Source: a virus (lineage: Duplodnaviria > Caudoviricetes). From it: a stretch of DNA of 64,000 bases. The DNA is taken from IMG/VR virus record IMGVR_UViG_3300020598_000119. The stretch is one strand, 5' to 3'. Of this stretch, positions 5,897 to 50,493 are shown in pieces. Made by a program: the position numbers and the translations under genes. The notes beneath the pieces were generated by a model, which was not told the origin of the DNA, did no database searches, and saw only the letters and a list, made by a program, of their open reading frames with translations. Within the stretch, counting starts at the first letter, position 1, and every line of letters begins with the position of its first letter.

Positions 5897-5990
5897 TGGT
5901 GCGGACGGCAGGACTTGAACCTGCACGGAGAGTAGCAAGCTCTCCACTGGGACCTGAACCCAGCGTGTCTACCAATTCCACCACGGCCGC
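5897..5990 (-). tRNA. tRNA-Leu(CAG), long variable arm
   Basis: Cloverleaf with anticodon loop TTCAGGT and encoded CCA. Confidence 0.92.
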
Positions 5991-6008
5991 ATATTCTTTG
6001 ATTTGACT

Positions 6009-6092
6009 TGGTGTGGACGGCGGGGATCGAACCCGCACGCACGAAGCGGTGAATTTTAAGTTCACTGCGTCTACCTATTCCGCCACGTCCAC
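6009..6092 (-). tRNA. tRNA-Leu(TAA)
   Basis: Cloverleaf with loop CTTAAAA and CCA. Confidence 0.93.
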
Positions 6093-6158
6093 ATTTTTTA
6101 TTCGGCGGTAAGTAAGAAGAAGATTGATTGGTTGGTGGTGTCTTCTGCAGGCAGTCAG

Positions 6159-6242
6159 TGGTGCGGCTGAGAAGAGTCGAACTTCCACGGGTTGCCCCAC
6201 AGCGACCTCAACGCTGCGTGTCTACCATTCCACCACAGCCGC
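6159..6242 (-). tRNA. tRNA-Leu(GAG)
   Basis: Cloverleaf with loop TTGAGGT and CCA. Confidence 0.93.
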
Positions 6243-6280
6243 ACAGTTCCGCTGATCAACGACGGCGAAGTCACAAGTAT

Positions 6281-6355
6281 TGGAACCGAAGGATGGAGTC
6301 GAACCATCGTCTCTGGAGCCACAATCCAGCGCTCTAACCATTGAGCTACAACGGC
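6281..6355 (-). tRNA. tRNA-His(GTG), no G-1, two U-U mismatches in the acceptor stem
   Basis: Loop TTGTGGC, T arm GATGG-TTCGACT-CCATC, CCA. Confidence 0.85.
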
Positions 6356-6365
6356 AAACAGGCAT

Positions 6366-6509
6366 CGCTAAGTAAAGGGACTCGAACCCTTAACGCAGAA
6401 TCGGTCTGGTTCGTATCTGCCATTGGTTTCTGCCATGAACCAGGGGTATGAATACCCATTCGTGATTGGCTTGACCTCAACGTCGTCTACCACTTCCGAC
6501 ATACTCAGC
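6366..6509 (-). ncRNA. tRNA-like RNA with a large structured insertion
   Basis: Acceptor GCTGAGTA/TACTTAGC, D-arm GTCGGAAGTGGTAGACGAC and T arm AAGGG-TTCGAGT-CCCTT. The middle holds extra hairpins. No CCA. Confidence 0.6.
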
Positions 6510-6542
6510 GAATTTCGATAAGGACCCGAGGCCCTTGAAACT

Positions 6543-6645
6543 TGGTGGCAGAACAGGCACTTGATCTCAGCGGATGATCAATCCGTGATCTTTGACCAGT
6601 ACGCCGACTCCGACGAATGTACCTAGGATACGTCAGGGTCCTGCC
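6543..6645 (-). ncRNA. unknown structured RNA with an acceptor-like stem and ACCA end
   Basis: GGCAGGAC/GTTCTGCC-ACCA closes two internal hairpins; no T-loop. Confidence 0.45.
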
Positions 6646-6652
6646 ATTTAAG

Positions 6653-6729
6653 TGGTCGGAGTGGCAGGCTTCGAACCTGCGACCTATGGTTCCCAAAACC
6701 ATCGCGCTACCAGGCTGCGCTACACTCCG
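6653..6729 (-). tRNA. tRNA-Pro(TGG)
   Basis: Cloverleaf with loop TTTGGGA and CCA. Confidence 0.93.
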
Positions 6730-6794
6730 AATTCTTCATGCACGGGCCGAGCAGCGCCACTGAAGGCAGTAGGTCTCGGCCCGTTAGTTTAACT

Positions 6795-6886
6795 TGGTGG
6801 GGGACGGCTAGAGTTGAACTGCTTGCCGCATAGGGACCCGGTTTACAGCCCGGTGACAGGACCGCCCATCCTTATTGGCGTCCCCC
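6795..6886 (-). tRNA. atypical tRNA-Tyr(GTA)-like, 8-bp acceptor stem
   Basis: GGGGGACG/CGTCCCCC-ACCA, loop CTGTAAA, short bulged T stem and non-canonical D arm. Confidence 0.6.
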
Positions 6887-6891
6887 ATAAA

Positions 6892-7105
6892 TGGTGGAGA
6901 TGACAGGATTTGAACCTGCGCAGACCGTGATGACCTTCGCATTACCAAAGGCTCCCAATTGGTTTGAAACGCGCTTCCCTACTCGGCCCTCTCTGGCTGT
7001 TTCGGTGCATCCGCAAAGACCCCAATCGAGATTTGTCACGTCCCTGTTTTACCAGAGCCGGATTCCGTTTCCCGGTGCCCATGCCGACCTCAGGCGGACA
7101 TCCCC
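6892..7105 (-). ncRNA. 214-nt RNA with a tRNA-Ala/tmRNA-like acceptor and T arm
   Basis: GGGGATG/CATCTCC-ACCA with G3:U70 and A73; T arm GCAGG-TTCAAAT-CCTGT; long structured interior. Confidence 0.55.
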
Positions 7106-7107
7106 AT

Positions 7108-7186
7108 TGGCTTGAACGGCAAGGATTTGAACCTGCGACCTCCTGGACCCATTCCAGGCGCGCTCCCAGACTGCGCTACATTCAAG
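7108..7186 (-). tRNA. degenerate tRNA-Pro-like
   Basis: Pro-type D arm; anticodon loop AATGGGT lacks U33; bulged T stem; CCA. Confidence 0.6.
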
Positions 7187-7406
7187 ACAAACTAGATTTG
7201 ACCAAAACATGGTCAGAAACTTTTGGCACTCACAGCGACGCCAAGGATCATCAGTCGCTGTCTCTCCACGGGAGAGGGATCTTCAGGCTCGTCCACGATC
7301 CGCCGCCTGTTCCTAAAAGTGCCACCGAAACAGCAGCTGGCCAGCCGCCATTCCGCAGGCTTCCTGGGATTGTTCTAGAATTTGCCCAGTATAGCCTTTG
7401 AAGCTG

Positions 7407-7489
7407 TGGTGCGGATGAGAGGAATCGAACCTCCACGGTTGCCCGTCAGAACCTAAATCTGATGCGTCTACCAATTTCGCCACATCCGC
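7407..7489 (-). tRNA. tRNA-Leu(TAG)
   Basis: Cloverleaf with loop TTTAGGT and CCA. Confidence 0.93.
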
Positions 7490-7519
7490 ATATTTCCCAA
7501 AGGGGAAAAGGAAAAATGA

Positions 7520-7596
7520 TGGTCGGAGCAGCAGGACTCGAACCTGCGACCCCCTGATCCCAAATCAGGTGCGCTACCAGACTGCGCTATGCTCCG
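7520..7596 (-). tRNA. tRNA-Pro(TGG)
   Basis: Cloverleaf with loop TTTGGGA and CCA. Confidence 0.94.
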
Positions 7597-7683
7597 TTTT
7601 ATTCAAAAATCATATTTCCATTTCCTCTTCAAGGGGGTCAAATCGAATTTAAAAACTCCATCATCTGACCCCCTTACATAATT

Positions 7684-7766
7684 TGGTACGGCAGAGAGGA
7701 CTCGAACCTCCACGTCAGAGACAATGGATTTTGAATCCACCGCGTCTACCATTCCGCCACTGCCGC
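7684..7766 (-). tRNA. tRNA-Leu(CAA)
   Basis: Cloverleaf with loop TTCAAAA and CCA. Confidence 0.93.
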
Positions 7767-7771
7767 AAACA

Positions 7772-7855
7772 TGGTGTAGGGAGTTGGATTCGAACCAACG
7801 TGGATTGCTCAACGGATTTACAGTCCGCCCCTTTCGGCCTCTCGGGCACCCCTAC
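7772..7855 (-). tRNA. tRNA-Tyr(GTA)
   Basis: Cloverleaf with loop CTGTAAA and CCA. Confidence 0.93.
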
Positions 7856-8303: not shown

Positions 8304-8465
8304 TATGATTTTTGCAATTTCTGATTTTTTATTCCGAGGACGTCCGATGCCGATGAATCATCTCTGAGGCGGATGGCCATTGGATGGCAAAAAGGGGCTG
8401 CAAGAAAATTGTTGGTTTCCAGCAACCGCAGGCACTATCATGAAACAAAATATTGGAGTTTTTCG

Positions 8466-9404
8466 ATGGCAATAGATTTACCTACCGCAGCCATGGCGCT
8501 TATCACCGCACTGGAGAGCGTCACTGGTGTTCAGATTGCTATTCTCGAACGTCGTGATGACCCGGCTGAATTCTGGGCCAGAACCGCAGCAATTCTATGT
8601 GATAAAACAAAACAGAATTGGTGCAGTGAGGACGTTCGCTTCATGACGTCCAATACGGAACTGATGGGGATGTCTCATATAATCGAGTACAACTTCGATG
8701 GGAAGGGGACACGTAGGGTATGCGCACTCCTGCCGCCCATTGCGAACATCGATCCCAATTTCATCGCCAATGCATATGGTTCACCGTATCCGACTATCTA
8801 CGATTTGCCATCGAGTGCGGAAACGGCAAGTTGGCTGATGCTGTATCATGCGGCGCACTGCCTCGACACAGCTCTGTCCGACCAGGAAGAAAACCGAGCT
8901 GTCGCCTTTGCGACTCTAGGGCTTTCGTTGATGGGAGGAGACTACAAGTTTCTGCCAGGAAGGGTACGCTCATCTGCTCGCCAGATTGCGGCCATGACAG
9001 GTAAGGCATCTGGATATTGGGCCGCAGGCACTGGCGAACGCATTCTGATGGATCTCTGGAAGACTGAAACTGGGGACAGGCTCCGGCGCGAGTACGGATG
9101 CTATCCAATAGTGAAACAGAGCAGCTCGATTGATATCGAACGGATTGCACGCGATTCACGCATTCCAGAAGGACAAAACTGCGCTGCAGAAGCAGGTGGG
9201 AACGGTGGTGGCATGCGTACGAACCCGCAGGGCACAATCACGGACGCCAACCTGTGGCTTTGGCTATATGGGCCTCAAAGTGGAGGAACGTCATCACCAA
9301 GGCTTGGCGTGCCCCCGAAGGACTACTATCCGTTTAAGACCTTCAAGGACTTCAGCACCGCCGCCTCTTACGTATTAGAGACAGCCAACAAGCTAGCGCA
9401 GTGA
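8466..9404 (+). CDS. hypothetical protein
   Basis: Start at MAIDLP after GGAG; HAAHC motif resembles a degenerate HExxH. Confidence 0.65.
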   Translation: MAIDLPTAAMALITALESVTGVQIAILERRDDPAEFWARTAAILCDKTKQNWCSEDVRFMTSNTELMGMSHIIEYNFDGKGTRRVCALLPPIANIDPNFIANAYGSPYPTIYDLPSSAETASWLMLYHAAHCLDTALSDQEENRAVAFATLGLSLMGGDYKFLPGRVRSSARQIAAMTGKASGYWAAGTGERILMDLWKTETGDRLRREYGCYPIVKQSSSIDIERIARDSRIPEGQNCAAEAGGNGGGMRTNPQGTITDANLWLWLYGPQSGGTSSPRLGVPPKDYYPFKTFKDFSTAASYVLETANKLAQ

Positions 9405-10253: not shown

Positions 10254-10457
10254 ATGACAGTACACGAAATAAATGCTCCGGTTGATGCCGTAGACGCAGC
10301 TGTCATGGCCCTTGTGGAAGCCCATGTTGATAAGGCTCAACAGGCCAGAGAACGATCCAATCTGAGGGGATGGTTCGTTGGCCAGACGATGAAGCAGCTT
10401 AATGGAACTGCAGAGCGTCAAACAGTCGAAATCGCAGTGAATAAGGCACTGCAATAA
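10254..10457 (+). CDS. stand-alone GatB/YqeY C-terminal tail-like mini-protein
   Basis: LRGWFVGQTMKQLNGTA resembles the GatB tail motif GFFVGQVMKxxxGKA; RBS present. Confidence 0.7.
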   Translation: MTVHEINAPVDAVDAAVMALVEAHVDKAQQARERSNLRGWFVGQTMKQLNGTAERQTVEIAVNKALQ

Positions 10458-49047: not shown

Positions 49048-50493
49048 ATGAAAATCACTGGCACTTTGCCTGCGAACAGTCGCGTCCGTGTTTCCGGTCA
49101 CGACGTTCACACTATCACTTCGTATAACGAGCCTGAACGACACAAGAGGCTGGCGCTTGATGATCTGTCGAATGCCATTCCGACGCATGATGCGTTTGAA
49201 CAAGCCGCAGCGGCAGTCAAAAGGATTGTGACCACACCGGACTTTCACGCTGGCAAGCCAGTTCCGGTCGGCGTAACCATGTCCATTGAAGGCGCTGCGA
49301 TGCCACATGTCATCGGCAATGACATTGGATGCGGCATGCGAATGGTCGTACTTAACGACGTCACCGAGGACGATCTGGCCGTCAGCGCGCTGGATGGCCA
49401 TTTGCGTCATGTCCATTTCCAAGGCAGTAGAAACATTGCGCTCTCTGGAAGACAGCGCCACGCAATCCTCAAGGAAGGCATCCCAGGGCTGCTGGAAGCG
49501 CTGGCCGGGGACGCGAAGGGGCTATTGGGCAACCTAGAACTAACAGCCGCGTGGAGAGACGTCAGCAGGACCTGTGATGATGGCTTCTTTCCGTCTGTAG
49601 ACATCGATAACGGCTTTCTCGAATACGGAAACCTCACTGACGGATACCGTTACGATGCCATCCTAGGCTCAATCGGTGGAGGAAATCACTTCGTCGAACT
49701 CGGTGTCATCGACAAAATCGTAGACAGCACGTTCGCTATGGCTGCTGGCGTAAAAGCTGGTGCCGTCGTCATGGTCGTTCACTCTGGCTCCCTCGATTTT
49801 GGCCAATATGTCGGCTCAACGACGAAAGGAAGAATGCGAGGACTGGCCAGACATGGCGATCAGCGCATCCTTTCTGCAGAGCACCACACAGACGAGCTAC
49901 AGCGCTTCCTCAACGGCCAAGCTAACGCGGTTAATATCGCTTTTGCAAACCGCTTTCTGATCGGCCTAGCGACCATCCATGCGGTCGAGAAGGCACTGGG
50001 GAAGCGAGTGGACGCAAGATTGATCTATGACGCTCCTCACAACGTCATCTGGTCAGATGGTAACACTTACATGCATCGAAAGGGGTCATGTCCAGCACGA
50101 GGCCAAGGCTTCCAGCATGGTTCGCCTTACGAGTGGCTCGGAGAACCCGTCATCCTGCCAGGCTCCATGGGAGACGGAACATGGCTACTAAGAGGGCTTG
50201 GCAATGAGGAGACGCTAAAGTCTGCAGCTCATGGAGCGGGACGACGCCTATCGCGCCAAGAAGCACGAGCCGAGGCCAATCATCCTGCTGACCTCCAGGT
50301 GATTACACCCATCGATCTCAATGCTCCTGAGGTGCGTTGCAGAGCGGATATCGTTCGTGAAATCGTCGGCCGATTGAAGGAAGAATCTCCTGATGCTTAT
50401 CGGCCAATCGAAAATGTTGTCGCTCCAATGGAGGACACTGGAATGGTCAACAAGGTTGCCAAAGTGCGTCCGGTCATCACCGTCAAAGGATGA
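49048..50493 (+). CDS. rtcB: RtcB-family RNA ligase
   Basis: PDFHAG, DIGCGM, GGGNHF, HSGS, HN, HRKG and HGAGR. Confidence 0.92.
   Translation: MKITGTLPANSRVRVSGHDVHTITSYNEPERHKRLALDDLSNAIPTHDAFEQAAAAVKRIVTTPDFHAGKPVPVGVTMSIEGAAMPHVIGNDIGCGMRMVVLNDVTEDDLAVSALDGHLRHVHFQGSRNIALSGRQRHAILKEGIPGLLEALAGDAKGLLGNLELTAAWRDVSRTCDDGFFPSVDIDNGFLEYGNLTDGYRYDAILGSIGGGNHFVELGVIDKIVDSTFAMAAGVKAGAVVMVVHSGSLDFGQYVGSTTKGRMRGLARHGDQRILSAEHHTDELQRFLNGQANAVNIAFANRFLIGLATIHAVEKALGKRVDARLIYDAPHNVIWSDGNTYMHRKGSCPARGQGFQHGSPYEWLGEPVILPGSMGDGTWLLRGLGNEETLKSAAHGAGRRLSRQEARAEANHPADLQVITPIDLNAPEVRCRADIVREIVGRLKEESPDAYRPIENVVAPMEDTGMVNKVAKVRPVITVKG

What the first reader, a model, noticed from the sequence alone, without database searches (positions are those of the whole stretch)
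6892..7105. 214-nt alanine-identity RNA in array 1 (tmRNA-like ends, no evident tag frame)
The ends GGGGATG...GCAGGTTCAAATCCTGTCATCTCCACCA give G3:U70, A73, a T arm and CCA, which are the AlaRS identity set and resemble tmRNA termini. The interior forms several helices (GGCTCTGGT/GCCAGAG, CCTTTG/CGAAGG). It is one-piece, whereas alphaproteobacterial tmRNA is permuted into two pieces. It is shorter than typical tmRNA, and I see no tag reading frame. It may be a novel aminoacylatable rescue or decoy RNA co-induced on stalling.
Basis: partly seen in the sequence, partly recalled or inferred. Interest (0 to 1): 0.75.

Follow-up and report, generated by a model that had tools for sequence, protein, structure and literature searches.

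The report
tRNA-shaped RNA of RNA-repair operons
The flagged 214-base gene is real and makes a strongly folded RNA with true tRNA ends, but it is not a ribosome-rescue tmRNA: it belongs to an uncatalogued family of tRNA look-alikes that elsewhere sits between Ro60/Y-RNA genes and the RNA ligase RtcB.

Summary
Window 6892-7105 (minus strand) encodes a 214-nt RNA with a 7-bp acceptor stem (G3:U70), A73, a T arm and an encoded CCA. It fills the gap between two members of a tRNA array exactly.

It is not a tmRNA. ARAGORN does not call it. The Rfam tmRNA model scores 19 bits against a cut-off of 47 and aligns only the tRNA-like ends. The only candidate tag frame changes through compensatory base-pair substitutions, not synonymous ones.

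I found seven further distinct homologues, in metagenomes and one isolate genome. A covariation-supported fold emerges: 92% of cells are paired, 32 of 57 pairs change on both sides, and 0 of 500 shuffles match this. The fold is a tRNA body whose anticodon arm is replaced by a three-way arm ending in a nearly invariant ~46-nt core.

Three members lie just upstream of rtcB. Two of these also have Ro60 and YrlA upstream, and two have rtcA visible downstream. The others lie in Leu/Pro/His/Tyr tRNA arrays, those with enough flanking DNA on giant Rhizobiales replicons.

The best reading is a tRNA-mimic cofactor or decoy of the Ro60/RtcB RNA-damage response, possibly alanylated. This scan met the same family before on other DNA (e1-5352075, e1-5361130), and my results agree. 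No expression or binding data exist.

The parts
6892..7105 (-). The whole 214-nt tRNA-shaped RNA. RNA position p corresponds to window coordinate 7106-p.
   Evidence: CM R1 scores it at 232 bits, against 30 bits or less for every true tRNA. It is identical in G001. Its boundaries abut the neighbouring array genes.
7099..7105 (-). Acceptor stem, 5' strand (p1-7, GGGGAUG).
   Evidence: Helix 1 is 100% paired, and 3 of its 7 pairs change on both sides. G3:U70 is present in 6 of 7 sequences.
6892..6902 (-). Acceptor stem 3' strand (p204-210, CAUCUCC), followed by A73 and the encoded CCA (p211-214).
   Evidence: ACCA is present in every member that reaches its 3' end.
7077..7095 (-). D-like arm (p11-29: stem 11-14/26-29, 11-nt loop containing GG).
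   Evidence: 93% of cells are paired. In L038, G11A plus C29U is compensatory. The alternative stem 10-13/21-24 is 86% paired, so the register is not settled.
7042..7075 (-). Two extra hairpins between the D arm and the anticodon-stem position: H2 (p31-48, A-rich loop) and H3 (p49-64, loop GUAAAA).
   Evidence: Helices 3 and 4 are 89% and 97% paired, and 6 of their 9 pairs change on both sides.
7036..7040 (-). P2 5' strand (p66-70). It pairs with p176-180 (window 6926-6930) and occupies the place of a tRNA anticodon stem.
   Evidence: In helix 5, 4 of 5 pairs change on both sides. The strands are CGUGA/UCACG here, CUCGC/GCGAG in L030 and CAUGG/CCAUG in L036.
6953..7031 (-). P3 (p75-84 pairing with p144-153), which encloses the conserved core.
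   Evidence: In helix 6, 9 of 10 pairs change on both sides.
6970..7015 (-). Nearly invariant core (p91-136). It contains P4 (91-94/133-136), P5 (99 and 101-102 with 127-129) and P6 (109-111/118-120). It also has a 6x6 internal loop, GAAACA/CGAGUA, of loop-E/S-turn type, and a variable hexaloop.
   Evidence: The eight members differ at only a handful of positions across the core. Two compensatory changes support the pairing: C102U+G127A in L030 and C110U+G119A in L046.
6933..6952 (-). Hairpin H7 (p154-173, loop GUAAUG). It forms a three-way junction with P2 and P3.
   Evidence: Helix 10 is 98% paired, and 5 of its 7 pairs change on both sides.
6903..6919 (-). T arm (p187-203, GCAGG-UUCAAAU-CCUGU).
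   Evidence: Helix 11 covaries (A-U here, G-C in the others). The T loop is UUCRARU in all members.
5897..7855 (-). The host tRNA array: Leu x5, His, Pro x3 and Tyr, plus odd tRNA-like units. The RNA lies inside it.
   Evidence: ARAGORN and Rfam.
49048..50493 (+). RtcB RNA ligase gene on the same replicon, 42 kb away.
   Evidence: Pfam PF01139, E 7e-76. In three other members RtcB lies immediately downstream of the RNA.

Best explanation
The gene encodes a member of an uncatalogued family of roughly 215-nt tRNA-shaped non-coding RNAs.

**Shown.** The RNA has a genuine tRNA frame: a 7-bp acceptor stem, usually with G3:U70, then A73, an encoded CCA, a T arm and a D-like arm. Two extra hairpins follow the D arm. 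In place of the anticodon arm there is a long arm (P2, a three-way junction with P3 and H7) tipped by a nearly invariant structured core of about 46 nt with a loop-E/S-turn-like internal loop.

The family occurs in two settings:
- directly upstream of rtcB on the same strand, with rsr (Ro60) and YrlA genes upstream in two of three loci and rtcA downstream in two of three;
- inside Leu/Pro/His/Tyr tRNA arrays, those with enough flanking DNA on giant Rhizobiales replicons, as in this window.

**Inferred.**
- In the array it is co-transcribed with the tRNAs. RNase P and the 3'-end tRNA-processing enzymes release it, because there is no room for a promoter or terminator of its own.
- The tRNA body gives it stability and access to tRNA-handling proteins. 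AlaRS may charge it.
- The invariant core is the docking site for a conserved partner, most likely Ro60/Rsr or RtcB.
- It would then act as a tRNA-mimic cofactor or bait in the response to tRNA/RNA damage, which the spare tRNA arrays also serve.
- It does not act as a tmRNA.
For: **Real structured RNA.**
- 0 of 214 differences from G001, against about 4.4% divergence in the surrounding array.
- Eight distinct members were found.
- 92.1% of cells are paired, against 35-50% for slid controls. 32 of 57 pairs change on both sides, and 0 of 500 shuffles match this.
- CM R1 separates members (143-232 bits) from tRNAs (30 bits or less).

**Context.**
- L036: Ro60 (TROVE + vWA_Ro60) - YrlA (67.7 bits) - RNA - YrlA (69.5 bits) - RtcB.
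- G543 C23: Ro60 C-terminus - YrlA (68.6 bits) - RNA - RtcB - RtcA.
- L039: RNA - Barstar - RtcB - RtcA.
- The window's own replicon, as seen in G001 contig 2, carries Rsr with a partial YrlA-like hit (36 bits, below cut-off) beside it. The window itself carries RtcB.

**Ends.** Spacers to neighbouring tRNAs are 2-8 nt in three arrays.

**Precedent.** YrlA is a tRNA mimic bound by Rsr. M. smegmatis YrlA is cut by RNase P and gains CCA (PMC4201824). tRNA-like RNAs next to RtcB were proposed as ligation cofactors (bioRxiv 10.1101/312249).

**Core sequence.** The core contains GCGGAUGC and GGCCGA. These resemble the YrlA 5' motif CGAAUGC and the Ro-contacted GGUCCGA / Yrn1 G7,G8,C9,G11,A12 described in PMC4201824.
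Against: - There is no transcript, processing, charging or binding datum.
- The window copy is about 766 kb from rsr on the G001 contig, and 42 kb from rtcB.
- pRlX5 and Bosea pANAM02 encode Rsr and RtcB but have no member, so the RNA is not an obligate partner.
- The YrlA model does not score it. The published GNCGAAN0-1G motif is matched only approximately, and one member (L027) has U in place of the G of GGCCGA.
- L039 has C3-G70, so alanine identity is not universal.
- The alignment used for pair counts was fitted to the model, and it holds only 8 sequences, some of them related.
Confidence: 0.6

Rival explanations
1. A stand-alone decoy for tRNA-targeting nucleases, independent of Ro60 and RtcB. 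On this reading, toxins or defence nucleases that dock on the tRNA body bind this RNA, which offers no cleavable anticodon loop. That would protect the replicon's translation, alongside the spare tRNAs.
For: - Five of eight members sit in accessory tRNA arrays; the three with enough flanking DNA lie on giant-replicon synteny.
- Some arrays have the RNA and some do not, as expected of an arms-race accessory.
- In L039 a Barstar-type RNase inhibitor lies next to it.
Against: - A passive decoy does not explain an almost invariant 46-nt core at the tip of the arm.
- Three members are embedded in chromosomal-type RNA-repair operons.
Confidence: 0.17
2. A miniature, tag-less tmRNA-like rescue RNA. 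It would be alanylated, delivered with SmpB and EF-Tu to stalled ribosomes, and would add Ala without supplying a message.
For: - G3:U70, A73, CCA and a T arm are present.
- The Rfam tmRNA model is the only family to touch it (19.4 and 28.6 bits).
- The D-region UUCGGCG faintly recalls the tmRNA UUCGAC.
- The replicon encodes SmpB.
Against: - The score is below the gathering cut-off of 47, and only the tRNA-like ends align. ARAGORN is silent.
- The interior is fully nested helices.
- Every substitution in the only candidate frame (GCG GAU GCA CCG AAA CAG CCA GAG AGG GCC GAG UAG) is non-synonymous, creates a stop or alters the stop codon. Four of them form two compensatory pairs.
- Two hairpins and a D-like stem occupy the region where, from my own knowledge of tmRNA-SmpB structures (not tested here), SmpB docks.
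- The replicon already has a bona fide two-piece tmRNA.
- One member lacks G3:U70.
- The genomic context is RNA repair.
Confidence: 0.06
3. An alanine carrier for a non-ribosomal reaction, or a charging-state sensor. It would be charged by AlaRS and used by a transferase, or read out as a signal. The core would specify the partner.
For: G3:U70 is kept in 6 of 7 members while pairs 5:68 and 6:67 covary. The CCA is encoded.
Against: No aminoacyl-transferase gene is linked in any locus examined. L039 has C3-G70.
Confidence: 0.05
4. A decayed tRNA with an insertion, or two fused tRNA remnants, without function.
For: The array holds other odd tRNA-like units that diverge at the same rate as spacers: 6366-6509 has 8 changes in 144 nt, and 6543-6645 has 5 in 103. 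One member (L041) looks degraded.
Against: - Zero changes in 214 nt.
- Eight members with strong covariation across marker-protein identities of 56% or less.
- An invariant core.
- Presence in unrelated genomic contexts.
Confidence: 0.02

Closest known systems
YrlA, the bacterial Y RNA-like tRNA mimic bound by Rsr/Ro60 (Rfam RF02553; Chen et al. 2014, PMC4201824; Wang et al. 2018, bioRxiv 10.1101/312249)
   Same: - Both are non-coding RNAs built around a tRNA-like fold with a canonical T arm.
- Both are encoded on the same strand between rsr and rtcB/rtcA; YrlA genes flank this RNA in L036 and G543.
- Both have a conserved non-tRNA module, presumed to bind protein.
- M. smegmatis YrlA even acquires tRNA-like ends and CCA after RNase P cleavage.
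   Different: - YrlA is a circularly permuted tRNA: the acceptor stem is closed by a loop and the 5'/3' ends form the Ro-binding stem. This RNA is not permuted. Its ends are the acceptor stem, with encoded CCA and G3:U70, and the arm that replaces the anticodon arm is closed.
- RF02553 does not score it.
- Its D region differs.
- It has two extra hairpins and a 46-nt core absent from YrlA.
- It is about twice as long.
tmRNA (SsrA; RF00023, alpha two-piece RF01849, RF04321)
   Same: Both have a tRNA-Ala-like domain: G3:U70, A73, CCA and a T arm. In both, a large insert replaces the anticodon arm.
   Different: - It has no pseudoknots and no message under coding constraint.
- It scores below the family threshold.
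- It has a D-like stem plus two extra hairpins.
- Its context is RNA repair, not ssrA/smpB.
- The replicon has its own true tmRNA.
[quoted passage not shown]
   Same: Both are tRNA-like genes next to RtcB. The b7a-tRNA is said to occur sometimes beside Rsr.
   Different: I could not read the original paper, which is not held. No Band-7 gene was seen in the loci examined here. Identity with this family is untested.
tRNA arrays of mobile elements, some of which carry tmRNA genes (Mycobacterium arrays, PMC5966550)
   Same: Both are accessory tRNA arrays on large mobile replicons that include a non-tRNA, tRNA-like gene.
   Different: In those arrays the extra gene is a canonical tmRNA. Here it is a different family.

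Membership tests
tmRNA | tRNA-like domain with G3:U70, T arm and CCA | tested here: met
   G:U at 3:70 in 6 of 7 members; L039 has C-G.
tmRNA | Scores at or above the Rfam gathering threshold (RF00023, RF01849, RF04321), or is called by ARAGORN | tested here: not met
   19.4 bits here and 28.6 bits in L046, against a cut-off of 47. Only the ends align. ARAGORN makes no call.
tmRNA | Tag reading frame (resume codon to stop) under coding constraint | tested here: not met
   All changes in the only candidate frame are non-synonymous, create a stop or alter the stop codon. C102U+G127A and C110U+G119A are compensatory pairs.
tmRNA | Pseudoknot-rich body (PK1-PK4) around the message | tested here: not met
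   The interior is accounted for by nested helices with covariation. No pseudoknot is needed or seen. Minor tertiary pairs are not excluded.
tmRNA | SmpB binding and ribosome rescue | not testable with these tools
   Needs biochemistry.
YrlA / bacterial Y RNA | Encoded within a few kb of rsr (Ro60) on the same strand | tested here: inconclusive
   Met for L036 and G543 C23. Not met for the window copy: rsr lies about 766 kb away on G001 contig 2. Contigs for the other array copies are too short to tell.
YrlA / bacterial Y RNA | Matches the RF02553 covariance model | tested here: not met
   No YrlA hit on the element at E<=10 or E<=0.1, whereas adjacent genuine YrlA genes score 68-70 bits.
YrlA / bacterial Y RNA | Permuted tRNA-like domain with a closed acceptor stem, and termini forming the Ro-binding stem | tested here: not met
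   The termini are the acceptor stem plus CCA.
YrlA / bacterial Y RNA | GNCGAAN0-1G (GGUCCGA-like) Ro-contact motif | tested here: inconclusive
   There are near matches only: UGCGGAUG at p91-98 and GGCCGAG at p118-124. L027 has GGCCUAG.
YrlA / bacterial Y RNA | Bound by Rsr/Ro60 | not testable with these tools
   Needs RIP or EMSA.
tRNA(Ala) | Cloverleaf with anticodon arm, recognised by tRNA finders | tested here: not met
   Neither ARAGORN nor RF00005 calls it. There is no 7-nt anticodon loop.
b7a-tRNA (RtcB/Band-7 associated) | tRNA-like gene adjacent to a Band-7/SPFH gene and RtcB | not tested
   The source paper is not held. No Band-7 gene was found in the loci annotated.

The most novel reading that the evidence does not exclude
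This would be the first Ro60/RtcB-linked tRNA mimic that is a true AlaRS substrate: an unpermuted, CCA-ended, G3:U70 RNA that is alanylated in vivo. Its invariant core would dock Ro60 or RtcB. The RNA-repair machinery would then be coupled to, or disguised as, a charged tRNA, for example recruited to EF-Tu or the ribosome, or protected from exonucleases by charging. Giant plasmids would have moved it into stress-induced tRNA arrays.
Probability: 0.22. Interest if true: 0.8.

Novelty: new variant of a known kind. Interest (0 to 1): 0.62.

Why it matters
Why bacterial Ro60/Y-RNA and RtcB systems use tRNA mimicry is an open question. [quoted passage not shown]

This family keeps the real tRNA termini and, in most members, the alanine identity pair. 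It adds an invariant structured core. That gives a directly testable handle:
- Is it charged?
- What binds the core?
- Does it help repair cleaved tRNAs, or protect against tRNA cleavage?

Its recruitment into spare-tRNA arrays of megabase plasmids links two themes that are usually treated separately: accessory tRNA arrays as counter-measures to tRNA damage, and RNA-repair operons. It is also a ready seed for a new RNA family model (alignment A8, model R1).

Tried and rejected
- **BLAST-level searches** of the 214 nt against PLSDB plasmids and INPHARED phages found nothing.
- **Genome draws.** 61 relatives, 401 genomes of the family, 401 of the order and 401 of the class gave only G001 and G543. 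A short hit in G723 was not confirmed by the CM.
- **AM1 megaplasmid.** A 143-nt 'tmRNA-like' hit is an artefact of a tRNA-Ala/Val cluster.
- **R. leguminosarum pRlX5.** It has the homologous divergent arrays, but a small ORF sits where a gap suggested a homologue.
- **L026.** The 223-nt gap in its array does not align with the family.
- **Other marker-protein contigs** (L025, L032-35, L042-45) lack the RNA or are cut.
- **Viral contigs** pattern scan: 0 hits.
- **Single-sequence fold:** the MFE z-score was uninformative at -0.19.
- **Promoter/terminator scan:** at background level.
- **Group I intron-in-tRNA:** rejected. A 138-nt insert is too short by my own knowledge of known group I introns (not tested here), and there was no Rfam hit.
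- **Sarcin-ricin-loop mimic:** Rejected because the GAGA loop is not conserved in the family (AGUGAG, AAGGAG).
- **Burroughs and Aravind 2016** could not be read.

Full report
**1. The observation**

The minus strand of window 6892-7105 reads GGGGAUG ... GCAGG-UUCAAAU-CCUGU-CAUCUCC-ACCA. This gives a 7-bp acceptor stem with G3:U70, A73, a canonical T arm and an encoded CCA.

The unit lies inside a ten-gene tRNA array on the minus strand, holding Leu x5, His, Pro x3 and Tyr. It starts 2 nt after the CCA of tRNA-Pro (7108-7185). It ends 5 nt before the next tRNA-like gene (6795-6886).

ARAGORN calls it neither a tRNA nor a tmRNA. Only the Rfam tmRNA model touches it, at 19.4 bits against a gathering score of 47. 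The single-sequence fold is not unusually stable (z = -0.19), so the case had to be made by comparison with other sequences.

**2. Where the window comes from**

The window's own assembly is not held. The nearest genome, G001, is Mesorhizobium sp. SP-1A. Its 1.19-Mb contig 2 carries an identical copy of the RNA.

- The sampled stretches of contig 2, and the window, are about 50% G+C, whereas three sampled stretches on other contigs are 60-65%.
- The contig encodes its own alpha-type two-piece tmRNA (RF01849, 226 bits, tag ANDNYAMDRALAA), SmpB and Ro60/Rsr.
- The window itself encodes GyrA/B, ribonucleotide reductase, a class I Trp/Tyr-type tRNA synthetase, a ClpB-like ATPase and RtcB.
- Related megaplasmids are R. 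leguminosarum pRlX5, the M. extorquens AM1 megaplasmid and two Bosea plasmids.

The RNA therefore sits on a giant accessory replicon.

**3. Conservation between the two strains**

The array is about 95.6% identical between the window and G001.

| Region | Differences |
|---|---|
| Spacer 7186-7406 | 11 in 221 nt |
| Odd unit 6366-6509 | 8 in 144 nt |
| Odd unit 6543-6645 | 5 in 103 nt |
| The 214-nt RNA | 0 |
| Whole stretch 6774-7118 | 1 |
| Four canonical tRNAs | 0 each |

This fits purifying selection. A recent recombination patch cannot be excluded from two genomes alone.

**4. Homologues**

A conserved 343-aa protein of unknown family (8373-9404) separates the two divergent arrays, and I used it as a marker. 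Contigs encoding its relatives gave two diverged copies of the RNA:
- L027:4829-5043, where the marker is 56% identical;
- L030:3379-3593, where the marker is 53% identical.

Both lie between array tRNAs with 5-8 nt spacers.

A metagenome scan with a 22-nt core pattern gave six more stretches. Two of these (L037, L040) duplicate L030 and L027. The new sequences are L036, L038, L039 and a degraded copy, L041.

A draw of 401 genomes of the order gave one isolate copy, G543 C23:1356-1580.

Arrays in pRlX5, L026, L032/33, L034/35 and L043 lack the RNA. It was not found in:
- 400 other genomes of the family;
- 398 other genomes of the order (G001 and G543 matched, and the G723 hit was not confirmed);
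- 400 other genomes of the class;
- PLSDB, INPHARED or IMG/VR.

**5. Structure**

A covariance model (R1) scores the eight members at 143-232 bits and every real tRNA at 30 bits or less.

On the eight-member alignment A8:
- 92.1% of cells form standard pairs, against 35-50% when partners are slid by 1-3 columns.
- 32 of 57 pairs change on both sides.
- None of 500 shuffles reaches any of the five measures.

The alignment is fitted to the model and has only eight rows, so these figures lean towards the structure. The slid controls and the many different pair types per position still make the fold hard to doubt.

The fold, in RNA numbering (p = 7106 minus the window coordinate):
- acceptor stem, 1-7 with 204-210;
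- D-like stem, 11-14 with 26-29 (an alternative register, 10-13 with 21-24, is nearly as good);
- hairpin H2, 31-48, with an A-rich loop;
- hairpin H3, 49-64, with loop GUAAAA;
- P2, 66-70 with 176-180, exactly where a tRNA has its anticodon stem and followed by a 4-6-nt 'variable loop' and the T arm;
- P3, 75-84 with 144-153;
- hairpin H7, 154-173, with loop GUAAUG.

Inside P3 lies a core (91-136) that is almost invariant in all eight members. The core contains P4, P5 and P6, and a 6x6 internal loop, GAAACA/CGAGUA. That loop has the AGUA/GAA signature of loop-E/S-turn motifs. This last point is my reading of the sequence and is not tested.

His long-range helix GGCUCUGGU/GCCAGAG is not supported (63% paired, no change on both sides).

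**6. Not a tmRNA**

- The tmRNA model aligns only the acceptor, a few D-region bases and the T arm. It skips 306 model positions.
- The one plausible frame is GCG GAU GCA CCG AAA CAG CCA GAG AGG GCC GAG UAG. Every substitution seen in it among members is non-synonymous, creates a stop or alters the stop codon.
- Four of those substitutions form two compensatory base pairs: C102U+G127A in L030, which is the apparent 'UAG to UAA' change, and C110U+G119A in G543. The constraint is on RNA structure, not on a peptide.
- The replicon already has a full two-piece tmRNA and SmpB.

**7. Context outside arrays**

- **L036:** a full Ro60 gene (TROVE + vWA_Ro60), then a YrlA (67.7 bits), this RNA, a second YrlA (69.5 bits) and RtcB.
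- **G543 contig 23:** the end of a Ro60 gene, then YrlA (68.6 bits), a weak YrlA-like hit, this RNA, RtcB and RtcA.
- **L039:** this RNA, then a Barstar-type gene, RtcB and RtcA.

In each locus all genes are on one strand. This is the rsr-Y RNA-rtcBA RNA-repair operon described for Salmonella and others (PMC4201824; PMC7790460 for its induction by damaged tRNAs).

YrlA is an Rsr-bound tRNA mimic that resembles a circularly permuted tRNA without a free CCA end. M. smegmatis YrlA is cut by RNase P and receives CCA (PMC4201824; bioRxiv 10.1101/312249). The present family is the unpermuted counterpart: real tRNA termini, with the non-tRNA module closed at the tip of the 'anticodon' arm.

**8. Mechanism**

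Shown:
- the fold;
- the family;
- the two kinds of context;
- the tight boundaries between the RNA and its neighbours.

Inferred:
- co-transcription with the array, with release by RNase P and 3' processing;
- stability and protein access through the tRNA body;
- possible alanylation, since G3:U70 is kept in 6 of 7 members while neighbouring pairs covary, although L039 has C3-G70;
- the invariant core as the docking site of a conserved partner.

Two stretches of the core resemble Ro-contact sequences:
- GCGGAUGC, compared with YrlA CGAAUGC;
- GGCCGA, compared with vertebrate GGUCCGA and the protected G7, G8, C9, G11, A12 of Yrn1 (PMC4201824).

Neither is an exact match, and L027 has GGCCUA. 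pRlX5 and Bosea pANAM02 carry Rsr and RtcB but no member, so the RNA is an optional component.

I put 0.6 on 'tRNA-mimic cofactor or bait of the Ro60/RtcB RNA-damage response'. I put 0.17 on a partner-independent nuclease decoy, 0.06 on a tag-less tmRNA-like rescuer, 0.05 on an alanine carrier or sensor, and 0.02 on a pseudogene.

**9. Novelty**

The family is absent from Rfam 15. I found no paper describing it. I could not read Burroughs and Aravind 2016, which predicted a 'b7a-tRNA' beside RtcB, so overlap with that prediction is untested.

After I had reached the Ro60/RtcB context, the scan's own notes showed that two earlier follow-ups, on other genomes, reached the same family and much the same reading (e1-5352075, e1-5361130). 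These are AI notes, not independent proof.

Relative to published knowledge, I class this as a new variant of a known kind: tRNA-mimic RNAs of Ro60/RtcB modules.

Noticed in passing
window 1-64000; G001 contig 2 (L001, L015, L016, L049): The window belongs to a giant replicon of about 1.19 Mb and about 50% G+C in a Mesorhizobium whose other sampled contigs are about 60-65% G+C. G001 contig 2 carries its own alpha-type two-piece tmRNA, SmpB and Ro60. The window carries GyrA/B, RNR, RtcB, a Trp/Tyr-type aaRS, a ClpB-like ATPase and three tRNA arrays. Relatives include R. leguminosarum pRlX5, the M. extorquens AM1 megaplasmid and Bosea plasmids.
   Followed up: partly
window 8373-9404 (+): A conserved 343-aa protein with no Pfam family sits between the two divergent tRNA arrays. 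It has 88 homologues, many on contigs of 0.4-2 Mb from Rhizobium, Agrobacterium, Sinorhizobium and Neorhizobium, and the flanking synteny is conserved (ClpB-like ... arrays ... chlorophyllase-like hydrolase, M15 peptidase, LolA).
   Followed up: partly
window 6366-6509, 6543-6645 and 6795-6886 (-): There are three further odd tRNA-like units in the same array. Against G001, the first two diverge like spacers (8/144 and 5/103) and may be decaying. The third (Tyr-like, GUA) has 1 change in 92 nt and looks constrained.
   Followed up: partly
window 6653-6729 and 7772-7855 (-): tRNA-Pro(UGG) copy 1 differs from its G001 counterpart at 16 positions, and tRNA-Tyr at 11. Other tRNAs of the array are identical. 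This suggests gene replacement or conversion within the array.
   Followed up: no
L026:8049-8135 (+): ARAGORN calls a tRNA with anticodon UUA, which would read the UAA stop codon, inside the Ser/Gln array of a related metagenomic element.
   Followed up: no
L039:3952-4242 (-): A Barstar-family RNase-inhibitor gene lies between the tRNA-shaped RNA and rtcB-rtcA. This hints that an RNase toxin is part of that module's biology.
   Followed up: no
L041:1-153 (+): This is a second copy from the same metagenome as L038. It has a weakened T stem and A at position 72 opposite G1, so it is probably a decaying paralogue.
   Followed up: no
L049:682-748 (G001 contig 2, upstream of rsr): A partial YrlA-like hit (36 bits, below cut-off) lies next to the giant replicon's own Ro60 gene. 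The replicon probably has its own Y RNA(s).
   Followed up: no
window 10254-10457 (+); L025:3532-3735: A 67-aa GatB/YqeY-tail-like mini-protein is embedded in the Ser/Gln array. It is conserved in a related element, with a weak PF02637 hit on record.
   Followed up: no
L024:3700-4400 (M. extorquens AM1 megaplasmid): A small cluster holds two tRNA-Ala genes and a tRNA with anticodon GAC whose acceptor, D and T arms closely match those of the neighbouring tRNA-Ala genes (only the anticodon region differs).
   Followed up: no
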